Assembly (NCBI GenBank): GCA_963665235.2
Contig: CAXXLX010000001.1
Span: 1,248,001 to 1,312,000 of the forward strand
Length of the DNA: 64,000 nt
Direction: 5' to 3'
Source of the DNA: Candidatus Poribacteria bacterium
Lineage (GTDB): Bacteria > Poribacteria > WGA-4E > WGA-3G
Shown: in pieces, positions 14,820 through 57,134 of the stretch
Layout: every line of letters starts with the position of its first letter
Position numbering within the stretch: position 1 is the stretch's first letter
Made by a program: the position numbers and the translations under genes
The notes under the pieces: generated by a model
The model's input: only the letters and a program-made list of their open reading frames with translations
Told to the model about the DNA's origin: nothing
The model's database searches: none

Positions 14820-14885
14820 TATTTGAGACGGAACCCGTAGGCGGGGTTTCAAACCTTGCTTACCGATAAGGGGGCATCCACCATA

Positions 14886-15167
14886 ATGCCTATTGTAGCT
14901 ATCCCATCCCTCATGCGGAATCTAACCGCGGGCAAAGAGCATGTCACCGTCGAGGGGACCACGCTCCGGGAGGTGATTAACGATTTAGAGAGGCTTTACC
15001 CTGGCACAAAAGTGAAGTTTTGTGAAGGCGACCGCATCCGTCCAGGCATCGCTGTCTATGCAGACGGTATTCTTATCAGAAGGAGTCTAGGCGAACTTGT
15101 TGATGAGAATGCAGAAATTCATTTTCTTCCGGCTATCGGTGGTGGTATCGATGTCAATTCGGCTTAA
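14886..15167 (+). CDS. MoaD/ThiS-like sulfur carrier with C-terminal extension
   Basis: Beta-grasp pattern IPSLMRNLT..TLREVI..FLPAIGGG followed by IDVNSA. Confidence 0.8.
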   Translation: MPIVAIPSLMRNLTAGKEHVTVEGTTLREVINDLERLYPGTKVKFCEGDRIRPGIAVYADGILIRRSLGELVDENAEIHFLPAIGGGIDVNSA

Positions 15168-15558
15168 CACGCCTCCGTCAAATCCCCATGCTTTAGCTTG
15201 TGGGATGTAGACGGCTCAGGGCGTTGTTGAAAAATTTAATTTGACTTTTACCGAAAAATGTGAATTATATCAGCATCGTGGACAGCATTCTCAGACTACA
15301 CTCTCATGTAGTTGCTGTCCCTCAACCCTGAGAAGTTGCGTGATGCTGGTGCGAAATCACTGAAAACATTTCGGGATACACCGACGCTACATGTGGAGTA
15401 GAATCCCAGTCAACAGTGTGTATCCCCTCAATTCTATTCTAAAACGGGCAGGCTTAGCTGCCCTAAGTGGAGACGATGTAAGACGAGTTATCCCTCAGGG
15501 GTAACCGCTGTTGTCGAGGAAGCACAAGCCCCCACCTTTAGGTGGTGGGTACTATGAC
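15168..15558 (+). mobile_element. non-autonomous IS200/IS605 element (left-end hairpin + non-coding cargo + omega-RNA right end)
   Basis: Both ends match the TnpB element at 55437-56958; preceded by TTAA; ends in TATGAC. Confidence 0.85.
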
Positions 15559-15580
15559 AGTTAACCTTTTGGCGGAATAC
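15442..15580 (+). ncRNA. TnpB omega-RNA (reRNA) scaffold plus flank-derived guide
   Basis: About 7 differences in ~115 nt against the reverse complement of 55437-55553; guide length is assumed. Confidence 0.7.
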
Positions 15581-15765
15581 GGTATCGATGTCAATTCGGC
15601 TTAAAATCGACTTTTTGGGAAAACTTGATGTGCGCGCGGGTAGGTTTAAAATTTGTCATGAATTGCATTTGCGCGTAAAAAAAGCGAATTTTAGGAAAAA
15701 AATGTAAAAAAAGTGGTTTTTTTACCAAAATTTGTCAAATTTGTGCATTTTTTTTACATTTTAAC

Positions 15766-15794
15766 TTGACAAACGGTAATTTAGCGTGTATAAT
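15766..15794 (+). promoter_or_regulatory. rRNA operon promoter; boxA at ~15825-15836
   Basis: TTGACA - 17 nt - TATAAT, then TGTTCTTTGAAA. Confidence 0.85.
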
Positions 15795-53861: not shown

Positions 53862-55412
53862 TTATCTTTTTCGACTTTGTATGCGTCGGGTTGACCGTCG
53901 CCTATCCTCATCATCATCATCGTCATCTTTACTACTTGTCTTTGAACTTGAGGAACTTGAGGAGCGTGTCGCTGTTGGACGCGTCCGCGTGCTAGATGAA
54001 GAAGAACGAGTAGTACTCCGTGATTTAGGCTGCGTTGTTCTGGAGTTGGATGGCGTTACCGACGGGGTTCGCTGCTGTTTCCATTTATCAAGACTACGTT
54101 GACTTGGAAAAGGCGAAGAACTGCTCCGGTTTCGCGAGGAGTTTATGGACCACGTTCTCCGTTCCGTGCTCGAGGGACTATACCTTCTGGATGTATTCCC
54201 ATCTGTCCGTGAGTCAAGACGTTGTCCGTTCTGTCTTTCTGTCGTCCGCGTAGAATAACTGGAGCGGTTCGTATACCGTCGGGGTTGCAGTGTCGATGTG
54301 TTCCTCACGACGCGTCTTTGATGAATAAGCGTGCTTCGAGAGGCCCGTTCTGTTGTCGAAGGTATCCGTTTCCGATGGTCTTGAATAGTGCTACGGACAT
54401 CGGTTTGTACGGTGGTTCGTTCTTTTGCTGGAAGTTGTGCCGCTAATCGGCTCCGGGTGTACCGTTTCCGTGTATTTTCATGCGCTGCGCTCCATTGATT
54501 GAACTGCGTCCGTTTATGGGCCCCCCGATGTGATGAGCGATAATCATCATAGTATGGGGAGTGCCAATGGCCGTAAAGTGACGGGTGACGCGAGCGATAA
54601 CGGACGAGGTAGTTCCCATAATAGGAACGAATGGAGAGATAACGATGGTCATAGACAGGATAACTCCATCGGAAATAGGCATCGTACCCATCTGTGTAAT
54701 AAAAGGGACCGTCGTAAAAGTAGAGATAGGTGTATCGATGCCAGGGACGCCAACGGTAGGTAGGCGTATAGCGATGAATGACACGAACTTTGGGGGCTCT
54801 ACGATACGTTGTGACCTCAATATATTCAACATCAAGTTGTTCGCCCCCTTCGGCGACGATATGAAGTTCCATCCAGCCGTTTTCGACATGTCCGGCGGCA
54901 GGAATTTTGATGGTTTCAGAACGTCTATTTGCTCTAAGTACAAAGGTGTCGCCGTATCGAGTTTCAGCGGCACTTTTGTCATGATATCCGCGTCGCGTTG
55001 CTTCTCGCCGAATATTCCGCACCCAAAGTTTACCGGCGATGGGTTCATCGTAATCCTGAATTTCGAATGTGTGCGGCTCTCCTTTGTATCGAACCAAAAT
55101 CTCAATAGACTGGGCACCTTGCGGGATTTCAAACAGGTATACCCCGCTTGCAATCGCAAATTCGTAGTTATCCATATCACGAGATGTACTTGCCCAGGCG
55201 GTAAGCCGCATTCCCTCCTCAAAGAGCGGGCTGGCGGTAATCGTCGCGTTGCCGCGTTCAATCCATTCATCTACGTCACTTGCAACCCGATGTTCTCGAC
55301 TCATTCGGTCAGCGTAATAACCGGAATCGGCGTAACTTGCTGTTACCAACGCTAGGCTTAATAAACAGCTAAGAAGTCCGGCGATTGTCAATTTGAAAAT
55401 GCGATTCGTCAT
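53862..55412 (-). CDS. secreted hypothetical protein with Tyr-rich middle and Ser/Arg/Thr-rich tail
   Basis: AGGAGG RBS before MTNRIFK; signal peptide; the upstream ORF extension lies inside the IS end. Confidence 0.7.
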   Translation of the reverse strand: MTNRIFKLTIAGLLSCLLSLALVTASYADSGYYADRMSREHRVASDVDEWIERGNATITASPLFEEGMRLTAWASTSRDMDNYEFAIASGVYLFEIPQGAQSIEILVRYKGEPHTFEIQDYDEPIAGKLWVRNIRREATRRGYHDKSAAETRYGDTFVLRANRRSETIKIPAAGHVENGWMELHIVAEGGEQLDVEYIEVTTYRRAPKVRVIHRYTPTYRWRPWHRYTYLYFYDGPFYYTDGYDAYFRWSYPVYDHRYLSIRSYYGNYLVRYRSRHPSLYGHWHSPYYDDYRSSHRGAHKRTQFNQWSAAHENTRKRYTRSRLAAQLPAKERTTVQTDVRSTIQDHRKRIPSTTERASRSTLIHQRRVVRNTSTLQPRRYTNRSSYSTRTTERQNGQRLDSRTDGNTSRRYSPSSTERRTWSINSSRNRSSSSPFPSQRSLDKWKQQRTPSVTPSNSRTTQPKSRSTTRSSSSSTRTRPTATRSSSSSSSKTSSKDDDDDDEDRRRSTRRIQSRKR

Positions 55413-55490
55413 GAGAATCCTCCTAAGTTTATGTTCGTCATAGTACCCACCACCTAAAGGTGGGGGCTTGTGCTTCCTCGACAACAGCGT

Positions 55491-56642
55491 TTATCCCTGG
55501 GGGACAACCCGTCTTATGTCGTCTCCACTTAGGGCAGCTAAGCCTGCCCGTTTGATGTTGATTGCAGCGTTGACATCTCTATCGTGGTCTGAACCACATT
55601 CAGGACATGTCCACTGCCGATCTAAAAGAGTTAGTTTTTTGTTATGGTATCCACAATCACTGCAAGGTTTCGTCGTTGCTGTCCACTGACCAATGGACAC
55701 AAGTTCTTTACCGTGCTTTGCACACTTCTGTTCGAGTATCAGCAGGAATTGATAGAACGCGTGGTCAGAAACTTTGCGTCCCCAGAGGCGTTTCATACCG
55801 TCTATGTTCAGCGTCTCAAAACAGAGTATATCAAACTCGGTGCAAAGTTGCGTAGCAAGTTTCCATTGCCAATCGAGACGTTGATTTGTTATTTTTCGGT
55901 AAAGTCTTGCCAAAGCACGACAGGCACGATACCAATTACCGGAACCTTTGACTTTACGGCTAAGGGCTTTAGACAAAGAGCACAACTTGTTGAGGGATTG
56001 CTTGGAAAATTGTGGGGATTCTATTGTGTTGCCTTCGTCGCTTGTTAGAAATGTTTTGATACCGAAGTCAAAACCAGCACTCTTACCTGTCTTAGGTTTC
56101 GGTTCGGAGGCGTCAACATTATCGCAAGAAAAACATATCCAATAATCCCCGCATCTATCACGTTTGAGGGTGATCATTTTGATGGTACCGCATATTGCGC
56201 GATGTTTATGAAATGAGAACCAGGTGTCTATACAGTTGATTTTGATACGGTTCCCTTCAAGTTTATACCCTGCTTGTGTGAAGGTCATAGAGCTATATTT
56301 ATGACGCGGTTTGATGTGAGGTAATCCTACTTTACGTGTCGTTTTGCCTGCTTCCCTTTCTTTGATATTCCTAAAAAACGCATCATATCCTTTGCCCATA
56401 CGCAACACAACGTCTTGAATAACTTGACTCGGCAACTGATTCCAATGAGGCTTTGTCCGTTTTTTGAGTTTCACAATATGCGCATTCATACGAGACAGAG
56501 AAATATTTTTGCGGTAGATGCGGTAATACCTTTTCTGCAAACGCATAATATGCAAGTGTATCTGCCACATATCGTCAATCATATTACCAATCTTTAGCGT
56601 GTTAGATTGATCCTGAAGTTTGAACTTGTAAGATTTTCTCAT
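55491..56642 (-). CDS. tnpB: RNA-guided endonuclease TnpB
   Basis: RuvC residues in GFDFG, FETLN and DRDVNAA; zinc finger CSDC/CPEC. Confidence 0.95.
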   Translation of the reverse strand: MRKSYKFKLQDQSNTLKIGNMIDDMWQIHLHIMRLQKRYYRIYRKNISLSRMNAHIVKLKKRTKPHWNQLPSQVIQDVVLRMGKGYDAFFRNIKEREAGKTTRKVGLPHIKPRHKYSSMTFTQAGYKLEGNRIKINCIDTWFSFHKHRAICGTIKMITLKRDRCGDYWICFSCDNVDASEPKPKTGKSAGFDFGIKTFLTSDEGNTIESPQFSKQSLNKLCSLSKALSRKVKGSGNWYRACRALARLYRKITNQRLDWQWKLATQLCTEFDILCFETLNIDGMKRLWGRKVSDHAFYQFLLILEQKCAKHGKELVSIGQWTATTKPCSDCGYHNKKLTLLDRQWTCPECGSDHDRDVNAAINIKRAGLAALSGDDIRRVVPQG

Positions 56643-56777
56643 TGACCGCTTTGACCTTCAAGGTAGTCTTTGATAACCTTCAGTGGCACACCGCCACAAG
56701 AGCTCACAAACTTCGAACGGGTCCACAAAGTGAGTTGTTCGGTAATCACGCTTGTTGTTAGAGAGTTTCAGTGGCAT
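56639..56777 (-). pseudogene. tnpA: internally deleted Y1 transposase
   Basis: MPLKLSNNKRDYRTTH joined out of frame to LWTRSKFVSSCGGVPLKVIKDYLEGQ; HUH motif absent. Confidence 0.85.
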
Positions 56778-56810
56778 AATATATTACCTGTCTATTAGAG
56801 CGTATAGGAG

Positions 56811-56839
56811 ATTATACCACATTTTGATTAGATTGTCAA
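56811..56839 (-). promoter_or_regulatory. IS-internal sigma70 promoter
   Basis: TTGACA - 17 nt - TATAAT with extended TG. Confidence 0.8.
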
Positions 56840-57134
56840 GTCTTTTTTTTATATCACGCACTTCGCCGTCTACATCCCGCAAGCTTCGGAAGTAAAACAA
56901 ATGAGCTTCGCCTCATCCGTTTTACTTCCGTAAAGCATGGGGATTTGACAGGGGAGTGTTAAAATACATTCAATTGATAGGATGTCGGTCCTTATTTAAT
57001 TTAATATATTCCGCTTAATGTTCATTTGTGACAAAAATTATACAATTTTTTTTAGCAATTGTCAAGAAAGAATTTAGAGCACTGCCCTTCGTTGCTTTAA
57101 GAGGGCCCGAGAATTGTCAAGAGGCTAAACGATA

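What the first reader, a model, noticed from the sequence alone, without database searches (positions are those of the whole stretch)
15168..15558. Protein-free IS605 element: omega-RNA plus an unknown structured RNA cargo, with its cognate TnpB 40 kb away
Seen: this 391-bp element shares its left-end hairpin, TTAA site and last ~115 nt with the TnpB element at 55437-56958. Changes in the gttatccc/ggggtaac stem keep pairing. In place of tnpA-tnpB it has ~170 nt (15270-15430) with no visible similarity to those ORFs: outer stem cagcatc/gatgctg, stem ggacagca/tgctgtcc with a bulged ttctcag complementary to downstream ctgagaa (pseudoknot or kissing loop), ggtg-cgaaat-cact, and stem gggatacac/gtgtatccc. 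Known: TnpB uses a right-end omega-RNA with a flank-derived guide. Inference: this is a parasitic or domesticated guide cassette that borrows TnpB in trans and carries a separate ncRNA (ribozyme, riboswitch-like or processing module).
Basis: partly seen in the sequence, partly recalled or inferred. Interest (0 to 1): 0.85.

Follow-up and report, generated by a model that had tools for sequence, protein, structure and literature searches.

The report
ORF-less IS605 guide-RNA element with leader
This is a small, protein-free relative of an IS605 transposon in a Poribacteria genome that still carries a guide-RNA module for the TnpB nuclease, and its "mystery RNA" is a variant of a conserved, knotted leader RNA that precedes tnpB genes in this bacterial group.

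Summary
Window 15168-15558 is a 391-bp ORF-less IS200/IS605 derivative (a PATE). It shares its left end, its TTAA site and its last 117 nt (94% identical) with the tnpB element at 55437-56958.

A guide cassette that must borrow TnpB and TnpA in trans is a known concept (Meers 2023).

The "unknown cargo" is not foreign.
- Domain D1 (15271-15348) is a three-way junction with a 7-bp bulge-loop pseudoknot. It is followed by a remnant of the tnpB start (GTG CGA AAT).
- D1 is a variant of a leader RNA found between the promoter and the start codon of many Poribacteria tnpB genes. A model built only from those leaders finds it (E 3e-5).
- Covariation is strong: 24 of 35 pairs in 38 PATE copies, and 24 of 33 pairs in 21 tnpB leaders.
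- The PATE-type variant was seen only in ORF-less elements (59 contexts).
- It is in 56 of 151 related genomes and has no Rfam match.

The function of D1 is inferred, not shown. Most likely it is a 5'-terminal folding or stability domain for the guide transcript. In full-length elements it may gate tnpB translation. Interest is moderate.

The parts
15164..15167 (+). TTAA target site / presumed TAM abutting the left end; overlaps the stop codon of the ThiS-family ORF 14856-15167
   Evidence: The same TTAA flanks the left end of all 5 other A-type copies examined and of the tnpB elements. Its role as a TAM is inferred.
15168..15558 (+). Whole ORF-less IS200/IS605 derivative (PATE), 391 bp
   Evidence: Own-genome copies: C1:494616-495010 (98%), C1:851216-851603 (81%), C1:101957-102775 (carries an inserted tandem repeat).
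15175..15214 (+). Left-end subterminal imperfect hairpin (CCGTC..ATCCCCA..TGTGGGAT..GACGG)
   Evidence: Read from the sequence. It is shared with the tnpB element, where an extra hairpin is inserted in its loop. About 20 further own-genome matches to this part.
15241..15268 (+). Sigma-70-like promoter, weakened in this copy (TTGACT-16-AATTAT, 9 of 12) by a 4-bp deletion in the -10
   Evidence: The 98% twin copy has TTGACT-17-TATAAT with a TG extension, 11 of 12. 37 of 59 D1 contexts have a site of 9 of 12 or better whose -10 ends about 5 nt before P1.
15271..15348 (+). D1, a structured leader domain. P1 15271-77/15342-48; P2 15280-87/15313-20; pseudoknot 15288-94/15328-34; P3 15295-15300/15307-12; P5 15323-26/15335-38
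   Evidence: Covariation. Model R1 matches in 56 of 151 genomes. Leader model R2 hits 15267-15371 with 25.9 bits, E 3.2e-5.
15349..15363 (+). Remnant of the tnpB start: GTG CGA AAT CAC TGA (MRNH*). The first 12 nt also form the 3-bp 'P4' mini-hairpin
   Evidence: Compare tnpB starts GTG/ATG CGA AAC/T AC. AAA CA. (MRNTKH). The segment is nearly invariant in 38 copies.
15373..15426 (+). D2, a long hairpin (GGGATACAC/GTGTATCCC) with an inner hairpin CTAC..GTAG. PATE-specific and variable between subfamilies; absent in C1:1653k
   Evidence: D2 of 7 PATEs from relatives (the window copy was not among the queries) has no match in tnpB loci or the own genome at E<1e-6.
15436..15504 (+). Remnant of the last 22 tnpB codons plus stop (ILKRAGLAALSGDDVRRVIPQG*), overlapping the omega-RNA
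15442..15558 (+). Omega-RNA scaffold and right end: hairpin 15446-63, GTGGAG box, stem 15487-94/15498-15505, RE hairpin 15529-36/15541-49, terminal TATGAC
   Evidence: 94% identical to window 55437-55553(-), 93% to C2:528790-528906, 92% to C1:3904362-3904478. Helices covary among A-type copies (by eye).
15559..15578 (+). Flank that would supply the guide (AGTTAACCTTTTGGCGGAAT)
   Evidence: Inferred from the known TnpB/omega-RNA arrangement (Meers 2023 passages). The guide length is assumed.
55437..56958 (-). Cognate tnpB element. tnpB ORF at 55491-56642 (383 aa); its 5' UTR holds a tnpA C-terminal remnant, not a D1-type leader
   Evidence: Pfam OrfB_IS605 and Cas12f1-like_TNB. PDB TnpB chains at E 6e-43, with GFDFG / FETLN / DRDVNAA and CxxC..CxxC motifs visible.
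15581..15604 (+). Second copy of a 24-bp direct repeat (first copy at 15144-15167), 22 nt after the right end
   Evidence: self-match of query 545-568. Unexplained. Not seen at the other copies.

Best explanation
The element is a non-autonomous, ORF-less derivative of an IS200/IS605 tnpB element (a PATE) in a Candidatus Poribacteria genome. In effect it is a mobile guide-RNA expression cassette.

Layout:
- Left-end hairpin.
- Own sigma-70 promoter.
- A compact 5' leader domain, D1: a three-way junction locked by a 7-bp bulge-loop pseudoknot.
- A remnant of the tnpB start codon.
- A PATE-specific hairpin, D2.
- The omega-RNA scaffold, the right end, and a guide read from the 3' flank.

How it works:
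- Y1 TnpA made elsewhere would move it to sites 3' of TTAA.
- TnpB made elsewhere would load its omega-RNA and cut the emptied TTAA-plus-guide site so that the copy is restored. The nearest cognate is window 55491-56642.

What D1 is:
- D1 is not foreign cargo. It is the PATE-lineage variant of a leader RNA that sits between promoter and start codon of many Poribacteria tnpB genes.

What D1 does:
- In full-length elements the leader probably gates tnpB translation. Its P1 5' strand is also complementary to the start-codon region.
- In PATEs, which have no ORF, its conserved fold most likely serves the transcript itself. It would be a 5'-terminal, base-paired folding and stability domain that keeps the long guide precursor intact until TnpB binds.

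Shown versus inferred:
- Shown: the anatomy, the copies, the covariation, the kinship to tnpB leaders, and the lack of an ORF.
- Inferred: transcription start, mobilisation and TnpB use in trans, and the stabilising role. I put the stabilising role alone at about 0.4.
For: Ends and omega-RNA:
- They are shared with an intact tnpB element.
- TnpB has both Pfam domains and visible RuvC and zinc-finger motifs.
- 8 uninterrupted Y1 transposase frames are in the genome.
- No ORF above 40 aa lies in the element.

D1 structure:
- 24 of 35 pairs change on both sides in 38 copies, with 0 of 500 shuffles as high. The pseudoknot and P5 were not in the aligning model.

D1 equals a tnpB leader:
- 23 of 27 tnpB loci from relatives show promoter, then P1-P2-PK-P3-P5, then ATG CGA AA. 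(by eye).
- In 21 aligned leaders, 24 of 33 pairs change on both sides, including 7 of 7 pseudoknot pairs.
- The leader-only model R2 hits window 15267-15371 in register, E 3.2e-5, with filters off over 801 nt.
- R2 finds 7 own-genome sites, 5 of them directly upstream of tnpB.

PATE-type D1 occurs only without an ORF:
- 0 of 59 contexts have a TnpB match within 1.4 kb, beyond the C-terminal remnant in 2 of them.

Promoter:
- 37 of 59 contexts have a site of 9 of 12 or better, whose -10 ends about 5 nt before P1.

Strand:
- About 70 G-U cells against about 28 non-pairs show that the sense strand is the one that folds.

P1 5' strand and start region:
- Cognate complementarity is -6.4 kcal/mol against -4.3 kcal/mol for non-cognate pairs, with 0 of 5000 permutations as low, n = 21.

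Expression hint:
- Metatranscriptome contigs match 15314-15471 and 15316-15459 exactly, while the flanks have depth 0-3.

Prior knowledge:
- PATEs that carry omega-RNAs for TnpB in trans are described (Meers 2023 preprint, passages read).
Against: Kinship between D1 and tnpB leaders:
- The two models do not cross-detect with default filters. R1 on 32 tnpB loci gave only E 0.2-3.4. R2 on 26 PATE sources gave no D1 hit.
- So kinship rests on one filters-off hit plus architecture and position. Convergence, or a very old split, is possible.

Expression and binding:
- Nothing shows a transcript 5' end, a processed omega-RNA, or TnpB binding.
- The RNA evidence is contigs only. DNA carry-over and the 98% twin copy cannot be excluded. 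No run, DNA included, covers 15252-15308.

This particular copy:
- Its -10 is damaged by a 4-bp deletion (9 of 12), so it may be poorly expressed.

Promoter generality:
- 22 of 59 contexts scored below 9 of 12 in my promoter scan.

Alternative pairing:
- The alternative P1 pairing is not supported by column-wise covariation (80.8% paired; 337 of 500 shuffles as high).
- The permutation test that does support it is inflated by kinship, with about 6 independent P1 types.

Open points:
- The stabiliser role has no direct support.
- D2 has no identified origin.
- A 24-bp direct repeat around this copy does not fit scarless IS200/IS605 insertion.
Confidence: 0.72

Rival explanations
1. D1 is a sensor or operator domain. 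It binds a trans factor, either TnpB itself or a small molecule. In tnpB elements, binding decides whether the P1 5' strand closes the domain or pairs with the start-codon region, which gates TnpB translation. PATEs keep only the binding domain so that their guide transcript captures TnpB made by other elements.
For: - Riboswitch-like layout in full-length leaders: the P1 5' strand is complementary both to P1' and to the -10..+7 start region. Cognate pairs are better than non-cognate ones: -6.4 against -4.3 kcal/mol, 0 of 5000 permutations as low, and the diagonal is best for 6 P1 types.
- Junction nucleotides are invariant or nearly so in 21 leaders: TTGG, CC, GGG and an A-rich J5/1.
- The D1 fold stays under selection in elements that have no ORF to regulate.
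Against: - The column-wise test of the alternative helix is no better than shuffles.
- PATE D1 has very few conserved unpaired nucleotides, unlike known ligand pockets.
- There is no sequence likeness between D1 and the omega-RNA scaffold that TnpB binds (read).
- No binding data exist.
Confidence: 0.18
2. One reading: the 170 nt are an independent ncRNA cargo (self-cleaving ribozyme, riboswitch or processing module) carried by a minimal IS605 shell.
For: - It is a real, strongly covarying pseudoknotted fold.
- It has its own promoter.
- It has no similarity to the window's own tnpB element.
Against: - It has the same architecture and position as tnpB 5' leaders and is found by a leader-only model.
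- It is followed by a tnpB start remnant.
- It was never seen outside IS605 ends in 59 contexts.
- It matches no Rfam 15 family, ribozymes, riboswitches, group I introns, IS605-orfB-I and HEARO included.
- It is almost all helix, with few conserved unpaired bases.
Confidence: 0.05
3. D1 and D2 are functionless leftovers of a deleted tnpB element. They hitch-hike on PATEs that are selected only for their ends and omega-RNA. The apparent covariation was inherited from full-length ancestors or spread by gene conversion.
For: - The element is plainly a deletion-type derivative: start and last-codon remnants are present.
- Mosaic copies exist. C1:851k has A-type ends with a B-like D1. Identical LE and promoter carry two leader types at C1:2325.6-2327.6k.
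- D2 is dispensable in C1:1653k.
Against: - The R1-type D1 was found only in ORF-less elements (0 of 59 with tnpB). Yet it shows 202 cells with changes on both sides and 97.9% pairing across subfamilies with different ends, in 56 of 151 genomes.
- The unconstrained neighbouring loop and linker sequences vary freely.
Confidence: 0.1
4. The fold acts in single-stranded DNA, not RNA. It would be a top-strand structure that helps TnpA-mediated excision or integration of the element.
For: - IS200/IS605 elements move as single-stranded DNA and use hairpins in the top strand (established knowledge; Meers 2023 passages).
- The folding strand is the top strand (G-T tolerated), which is the same as the RNA sense strand.
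Against: - D1 starts about 5 nt after a consensus -10 in most copies. In tnpB elements it sits precisely between promoter and start codon and is complementary to the start region. That points to RNA.
- About 70 G-T wobble cells and a 7-bp long-range pseudoknot are less plausible in DNA.
- Known TnpA recognition needs only the subterminal hairpins. This last point is recalled, not tested here.
Confidence: 0.05

Closest known systems
PATEs (palindrome-associated transposable elements) of IS200/IS605, e.g. the ORF-less ISGst-like elements of Geobacillus stearothermophilus (Meers et al. 2023 preprint, PMC10055086; passages read)
   Same: - Minimal non-autonomous elements with IS605-type left and right ends and no protein gene.
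- The paper states that PATEs 'often encode omega-RNAs' that must be used in trans by TnpB from other elements.
   Different: - The Poribacteria elements carry a conserved internal promoter plus a pseudoknotted leader domain (D1) and a second hairpin (D2) upstream of the omega-RNA.
- I saw no mention of such modules in the passages read. I did not read the extended-data figures or the supplements.
TnpB omega-RNA (reRNA) at the right end of IS605-family elements
   Same: - Window 15442-15558 is 94% identical to the region that overlaps the last tnpB codons and runs to the right end of an intact tnpB element.
- It has covarying hairpins and ends at the transposon boundary, so the guide comes from the flank.
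   Different: - It is expressed, if at all, from its own promoter about 290 nt upstream, behind two extra structured domains, rather than as the 3' part of a tnpB mRNA.
- It does not match Rfam IS605-orfB-I (RF03065) or HEARO (RF02033). That these two families are in Rfam 15 is from PMC11701678 (passages).
IStrons (group I intron in the 5' part of an IS605/IS607 tnpB element; Zedaveinyte et al. 2023 preprint seen as a search listing only; review PMC13565253, passages read)
   Same: A structured RNA occupies the 5' untranslated part of a TnpB-family element, and an omega-RNA occupies the 3' end of the same transcript.
   Different: - D1 is about 80 nt and has a different helix order from the group I core (helix order recalled).
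- It has no Rfam intron match.
- No splice-site logic is evident.
Translational control of transposases by 5' UTR structure (the IS200 tnpA leader stem-loop occluding the ribosome-binding site; recalled, not read here) and riboswitch P1/anti-start competition
   Same: In full-length Poribacteria tnpB elements the leader's P1 5' strand can pair either with P1' or with the start-codon region.
   Different: - The structure is far more elaborate than a single occluding hairpin.
- It is kept in elements with nothing to translate.
- No ligand or factor is known.

Membership tests
IS200/IS605 non-autonomous element (PATE/MITE) | Subterminal imperfect hairpins at both ends, resembling those of a resident autonomous or tnpB element | tested here: met
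   LE at 15175-15214 and RE at 15529-49 are shared with the element at 55437-56958.
IS200/IS605 non-autonomous element (PATE/MITE) | Insertion 3' of a conserved short target sequence, without target-site duplication | tested here: inconclusive
   TTAA abuts the left end in all 6 A-type copies and the tnpB elements looked at, and 5 copies show no duplication. The window copy has an unexplained 24-bp direct repeat (15144-67 and 15581-15604), offset 22 nt from the RE.
IS200/IS605 non-autonomous element (PATE/MITE) | No transposase or nuclease gene inside; several copies per genome; transposase available in trans | tested here: met
   Largest internal ORF is 40 aa. There are 12 D1-bearing sites in the genome. 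8 uninterrupted Y1_Tnp frames are present. Which TnpA recognises these ends was not determined.
TnpB omega-RNA | Lies at the right end, overlaps or follows the tnpB 3' end, and runs into the flank | tested here: met
   117 nt are 94% identical to the tnpB 3' region and RE of 55437-55553. The last 22 tnpB codons are retained.
TnpB omega-RNA | Transcribed, bound by TnpB, and directs TAM-dependent cleavage | not testable with these tools
   Only metatranscriptome contigs cover parts of the element. There are no read ends and no binding data.
Poribacteria tnpB 5' leader RNA (defined here, model R2) | P1 enclosing a P2/P3 arm and a P5 hairpin, with a 7-bp pairing between the P2-P3 bulge and the P5 loop | tested here: met
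   All helices are present in the window and covary. R2 aligns 15267-15371 in register, 25.9 bits, E 3.2e-5.
Poribacteria tnpB 5' leader RNA (defined here, model R2) | Located between a sigma-70 promoter and the tnpB start codon | tested here: met
   The promoter-like site at 15241-68 is weakened here and intact in the twin copy. The start remnant GTG CGA AAT follows at 15349. The ORF itself is gone.
Poribacteria tnpB 5' leader RNA (defined here, model R2) | Detected by the family model under standard search conditions | tested here: not met
   With default filters, R2 finds no PATE D1 in 26 sources, and R1 finds no tnpB leader at E<0.2 in 32 loci. D1 is therefore a diverged variant, not a typical member.
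Known Rfam families (riboswitches, self-cleaving ribozymes, group I/II introns, IS605-orfB-I, HEARO) | Match to a curated covariance model | tested here: not met
   In 15100-15650 at E<=10 there was only a chance Xist_exon1 hit at E 5.7. In 12 PATE and tnpB loci at E<=0.1 there were only two chance microRNA hits on the opposite strand. The window at gathering score gave rRNAs and tRNAs only.
Riboswitch or ribozyme in general | Highly conserved unpaired core nucleotides; for riboswitches, an expression platform | tested here: inconclusive
   PATE D1 has few conserved unpaired bases. tnpB leaders have some and a possible anti-start pairing. That pairing was not confirmed column-wise.

The most novel reading that the evidence does not exclude
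The leader is a genuine regulatory RNA domain of the OMEGA/TnpB system. It would be a pseudoknotted sensor that binds TnpB, or a metabolite. In tnpB elements it would switch translation on or off through competition between P1 and an anti-start pairing. An old lineage of ORF-less elements has kept and reshaped this sensor (the R1-type D1) to capture TnpB made by other transposons. That would be molecular parasitism of an RNA-guided nuclease through a dedicated recruiting RNA.
Probability: 0.18. Interest if true: 0.8.

Novelty: new variant of a known kind. Interest (0 to 1): 0.55.

Why it matters
TnpB/omega-RNA systems are the ancestors of Cas12 and are being developed as compact genome editors. 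How their expression and RNA loading are controlled in nature is poorly known.

This locus exposes an abundant and apparently undescribed RNA motif family tied to tnpB in Poribacteria.
- The tnpB leader model hit 99 of 151 genomes of the phylum, with well over 1000 matches listed.
- The PATE variant hit 56 of 151 related genomes.

ORF-less elements keep the fold under selection, so it does something beyond regulating tnpB translation. If it stabilises or delivers guide RNA it could be a useful natural 5' module for engineered omega-RNAs. If it is a switch, it would be the first leader-based control of TnpB.

The basic idea of a protein-free guide cassette is already in print.

Tried and rejected
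Rfam
- Three searches found no family for D1, D2, the omega-RNA or the tnpB leaders.

Decayed coding sequence
- tblastn of the window TnpB against 59 D1 contexts hit only the last about 22 codons, in 2 of them. A weak extension over D1 (33% identity over 96 aa, with a stop) rests on those codons.
- A shared 10-mer, GTGGACAGCA, between D1 and the tnpB coding region seemed possibly due to chance by a rough mental estimate that I did not run as a call.
- R1 also gave weak hits (E 0.2-3.4) inside the N-terminal coding region of one tnpB clade, because GTGCGAAAT occurs twice there. I could not decide which copy the PATE segment descends from.

Origin of D2
- blastn of D2-to-RE segments of 7 PATEs from relatives matched tnpB loci and the own genome only from query position 71-84 onward, which is the omega-RNA part. 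The window's own D2 was not among those queries.

Cross-detection of the two models with default filters failed.

Alternative P1 helix
- The column-wise test failed.
- A first duplex test (n = 24; -7.9 against -5.1 kcal/mol) was confounded, because its window included part of P1'. I repeated it with a -10..+7 window on 21 leaders. I dropped L118, L126 and L035, whose start codons did not sit at the assumed place.

RNA-seq
- One look-up found 3 RNA runs of one study and 4 runs of unknown kind from a second study.
- Laying X1-X4 gave contigs only. No starts, ends or strand can be read from them. 15252-15308 is uncovered in all four runs. The window flanks have depth 0-3 in the RNA runs. I treat this as a weak hint only.

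Orthologous empty site
- ThiS-like genes of 5 relatives end with different short tails and have different downstream neighbours, so the 24-bp repeat stays unexplained.

Literature
- Searches for a tnpB leader or pseudoknot, for Poribacteria plus TnpB (0 papers) and for Poribacteria-1 / IS605-orfB (only the Rfam 15 papers) found no description of this motif.
- A 'Poribacteria-1' motif is something I recall from earlier motif surveys. I could not check it beyond the absence of any Rfam hit.
- Supplements of papers were not opened. Extended-data figures of Meers 2023 may show PATE anatomy that I did not see.

Not used
- Complex prediction, structure prediction and the protein-cluster tools. No protein-protein claim is made.
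Full report
**What is there**

- It begins right after a TTAA at 15164-67. That TTAA overlaps the stop codon of a ThiS-family ORF.
- It ends in ...GGTGGTGGGTACTATGAC at 15558.
- Aligned with the reverse complement of 55400-57000, it shares the left-end hairpin region and the last 117 nt.
- The own-genome search puts that 117-nt match at 94% identity. It also finds two more tnpB-linked copies, at 93% and 92%.
- The partner at 55437-56958(-) encodes a 383-aa TnpB.
- That TnpB has Pfam OrfB_IS605 and Cas12f1-like_TNB domains.
- It matches solved TnpB chains 8bf8, 8exa and 8h1j at E 6e-43. That these chains are ISDra2 TnpB is recalled.
- Its GFDFG, FETLN and DRDVNAA motifs and two CxxC pairs are visible in the sequence and alignment.
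- The small element has no ORF above 40 aa.
- The host is a Candidatus Poribacteria genome. A strict D1 pattern scanned over one genome per 185,579 species hit 28 stretches, all titled Candidatus Poribacteria.

**Copies and anatomy**

The genome (5.3 Mb, 4 contigs) holds 12 sites that match a covariance model of the first cargo domain (R1). I read ten of them. They fall into at least two subfamilies with different ends.
- Subfamily A: TTAA|CAC... to ...TATGAC.
- Subfamily B: TTTAC|GGG... to ...TATCAC.

Both subfamilies share the same internal order:
1. Left-end hairpin.
2. A sigma-70-like promoter (typically TTGACT-17-TGTGGTATAAT).
3. Domain D1.
4. An almost invariant GTGCGAAATCAC.
5. A variable hairpin D2, absent in one copy.
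6. An omega-RNA-like scaffold with a GTGGAG box.
7. The right-end hairpin.

The window copy has a 4-bp deletion in its -10. It scores 9 of 12 and lacks the TG extension. Its 98% twin at C1:494616-495010 scores 11 of 12 with TG. So this particular copy may be weakly expressed.

**D1 is a real structured RNA**

D1 has these elements:
- An outer helix, P1.
- An arm made of P2 and P3.
- A short hairpin, P5.
- A 7-bp pairing between the P2-P3 bulge and the P5 loop.

Covariation:
- On nine own-genome copies, 97.5% of cells pair and 12 of 31 pairs change on both sides. No shuffle in 500 reaches that, and slid controls pair at 28-49%.
- On 38 copies from 30 genomes, 97.9% of cells pair and 24 of 35 pairs change on both sides (0 of 500 shuffles).
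- That includes 5 of 7 pseudoknot pairs and 3 of 4 P5 pairs. The aligning model contained neither helix, so these two cannot be artefacts of model fitting.
- About 70 G-U cells against about 28 non-pairs show that the sense strand is the one that folds.

The whole presumed transcript (15266-15578) folds with z = -3.0. The fold reproduces D1, D2 and the omega-RNA hairpins.

Distribution of R1:
- It matches 56 of 151 related genomes.
- That is 54 of 90 in the same family, 1 of 29 in a second family, and 0 of 31 in the others.

No Rfam 15 family matches D1, D2 or the omega-RNA.

**The turn: D1 is a tnpB leader, not foreign cargo**

First I looked at what lies upstream of the genome's other tnpB genes.
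- Two of them, C1:602305 and C1:331171, have a 5' UTR with the same helix order: P1, P2, pseudoknot strand, P3 hairpin, P2', P5 around the second pseudoknot strand, P1'.

Then I fetched 30 tnpB loci from relatives with one clade's protein.
- I read 27 upstream regions, and 23 show the same pattern (by eye).
- The pattern is promoter, then this fold, then 10-20 nt, then ATG CGA AA. (MRN...).

An alignment of 21 such leaders supports the fold:
- 24 of 33 pairs change on both sides.
- That includes 7 of 7 pseudoknot pairs, 7 of 8 in P2 and 6 of 7 in P3.
- 0 of 500 shuffles reach this.
- P1 pairs at only 80%, because four sequences are misaligned there.

A model built only from these leaders (R2) gave:
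- With filters off over 801 nt, a hit at window 15267-15371 at 25.9 bits, E 3.2e-5, with every helix in register.
- Matches in 99 of 151 genomes of the phylum, 88 of 99 in the same family.
- 7 own-genome sites, 5 of them directly upstream of tnpB.

The segment after D1 matches the first codons of those tnpB genes, with small indels.
- The segment in PATEs: GTG CGA AAT CAC T.A AAA CAT.
- The tnpB gene starts: GTG/ATG CGA AAC/T AC. AAA CA..

At the other side, the element keeps the last 22 tnpB codons, ILKRAGLAALSGDDVRRVIPQG. So the element reads as a tnpB element that has lost its ORF.

Against a simple recent-deletion story:
- The two models do not find each other's members with default filters.
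- The PATE-type D1 lacks the spacer before the start codon.
- At C1:2325.6-2327.6k, two elements with near-identical left ends and promoters carry the two different leader types. One is a PATE. The other has an internally deleted tnpB.
- None of 59 D1 contexts has a TnpB match within 1.4 kb downstream, apart from the C-terminal remnant in two.

I therefore read the R1-type D1 as the mark of an old ORF-less lineage. That lineage has exchanged ends with different tnpB families. Its covariation arose while there was no ORF to regulate.

**D2**

- Its stem has three fully compensated variants: GGGATACAC/GTGTATCCC, AGGACGGAC/GTCCGTCT and GGAATGCAC/GTGCATTCC (by eye).
- In other subfamilies it has a different but conserved form.
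- blastn of D2-to-RE segments of 7 PATEs from relatives matches tnpB loci only from the omega-RNA part onward. The window copy was not among those queries.
- Its origin is undetermined.

**How it most likely works**

Shown:
- The ends and the TTAA target.
- The omega-RNA homology.
- An intact cognate tnpB.
- 8 uninterrupted Y1 transposase frames elsewhere in the genome.
- A promoter-like site whose -10 ends about 5 nt before P1. It scores 9 of 12 or better in 37 of 59 contexts, and 10 of 12 or better in 31 of 59. The other 22 score lower, and many of those come from one high-copy family in two genomes.

Inferred:
- Transcription starts at or within a few nt of P1 and runs through D1, D2 and the omega-RNA into the flank.
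- TnpB made elsewhere binds the scaffold and uses the flank as guide against the TTAA-adjacent empty site.
- TnpA made elsewhere moves the element.

This guide-cassette-in-trans idea is already stated for PATEs (Meers et al. 2023 preprint, passages read).

For D1 I commit to a 5'-terminal folding and stability domain of the guide precursor, at about 0.4. My reasons:
- It is a compact, almost fully helical fold that begins at the transcript's 5' end.
- It is under selection where nothing is translated.

In full-length elements the leader probably also gates translation.
- The P1 5' strand is complementary to the -10..+7 start region.
- Cognate pairs score -6.4 kcal/mol against -4.3 kcal/mol for non-cognate pairs, with 0 of 5000 permutations as low. 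The diagonal is best for six P1 types.
- But kinship inflates that test, and the column-wise count is no better than shuffles.
- A sensor or TnpB-recruiting role is the main rival, at about 0.18.

**Expression**

- Three metatranscriptome runs of one study hold contigs that match parts of the element.
- Two contigs match 15314-15471 and 15316-15459 without a single difference. They bridge D1, D2 and the start of the omega-RNA.
- The flanks show depth 0-3.
- These are contigs. DNA carry-over and the twin copy cannot be excluded. 15252-15308 is uncovered in every run.
- This is a weak hint only.

**Comparison and novelty**

- The kind, an ORF-less IS605 element with an omega-RNA, is known.
- The leader motif family appears undescribed. 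That covers both the tnpB-linked form and the PATE form, and the PATE-specific promoter-D1-D2-omega-RNA layout.
- There is no Rfam match.
- Three literature searches found nothing.
- Those searches cover only the held library, and I opened no supplements.
- I rate it a new variant of a known kind, of moderate interest.

**Loose ends**

- A 24-bp direct repeat brackets the window copy: 15144-67, and 15581-15604, which is 22 nt beyond the right end. It does not fit scarless insertion, and comparison with five orthologous loci did not explain it.

Noticed in passing
window 15144-15167 and 15581-15604: A perfect 24-bp direct repeat (the 3' end of the ThiS-family ORF, including its stop and TTAA) brackets the element plus 22 extra nt after the right end. 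IS200/IS605 insertion should leave no duplication, and the other copies have none.
   Followed up: partly
G000:C1:~102090-102410 (L004) and G000:C1:~892830-893130 (L032): Two PATE copies carry internal tandem-repeat arrays. One is a 32-bp unit repeated about 10 times between two promoter-like sites. The other is a 17-bp unit repeated about 19 times inside an omega-RNA hairpin. The C1:892k copy also has a 31-nt duplication inside D1.
   Followed up: no
G000:C1:2325668-2326080 and ~2326850-2327560: Two elements flank an Fe-S subunit gene and have near-identical left ends and promoters. The first is a PATE with the R1-type D1. The second has the R2-type leader and a tnpB with a large internal deletion, which may be an intermediate or a recombination partner.
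   Followed up: partly
G000:C1:691779-691888 (-): A solo promoter plus R2-type leader, with no recognisable IS end or tnpB, lies upstream of a dnaA-like ORF.
   Followed up: no
tnpB leaders, loci L098-L121 (e.g. L098:1383-1512): In many full-length elements the P1 3' strand is repeated just before, or across, the start codon (for example CTTGATAC TTGATATACC ATG, or CTATGCT..AACTATGCGA). The repeat follows the sequence of the P1 5' strand across about six P1 types, which suggests a translational switch.
   Followed up: partly
window 56643-56800 (-), 5' UTR of the tnpB element: The full-length element's 5' UTR contains the C-terminal remnant of a Y1 tnpA (..LWTRSKFVSSCGGVPLKVIKDYLEGQ) fused behind the promoter, instead of a D1-type leader. 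Its left-end hairpin loop also holds an extra inserted hairpin (56885-56930).
   Followed up: no
window 15766-15794; loci L066 and L031: PATEs often sit just upstream of highly expressed genes and point the same way: the rRNA operon here (its own TTGACA-17-TATAAT is at 15766-94), a tuf-like gene in L066, and a thioredoxin-like gene at G000:C1:185k.
   Followed up: no
L061 (G015:C3), downstream of D1: In one D1 copy the leader is followed by an ORF of roughly 100 aa of unknown kind (MSEKTKASRPKK...), in place of D2 and the omega-RNA.
   Followed up: no
window 53862-55484 (-): A 540-aa ORF whose start overlaps the right end of the tnpB element. Its C-terminal half is extremely Ser/Thr/Arg-rich and of low complexity.
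   Followed up: no
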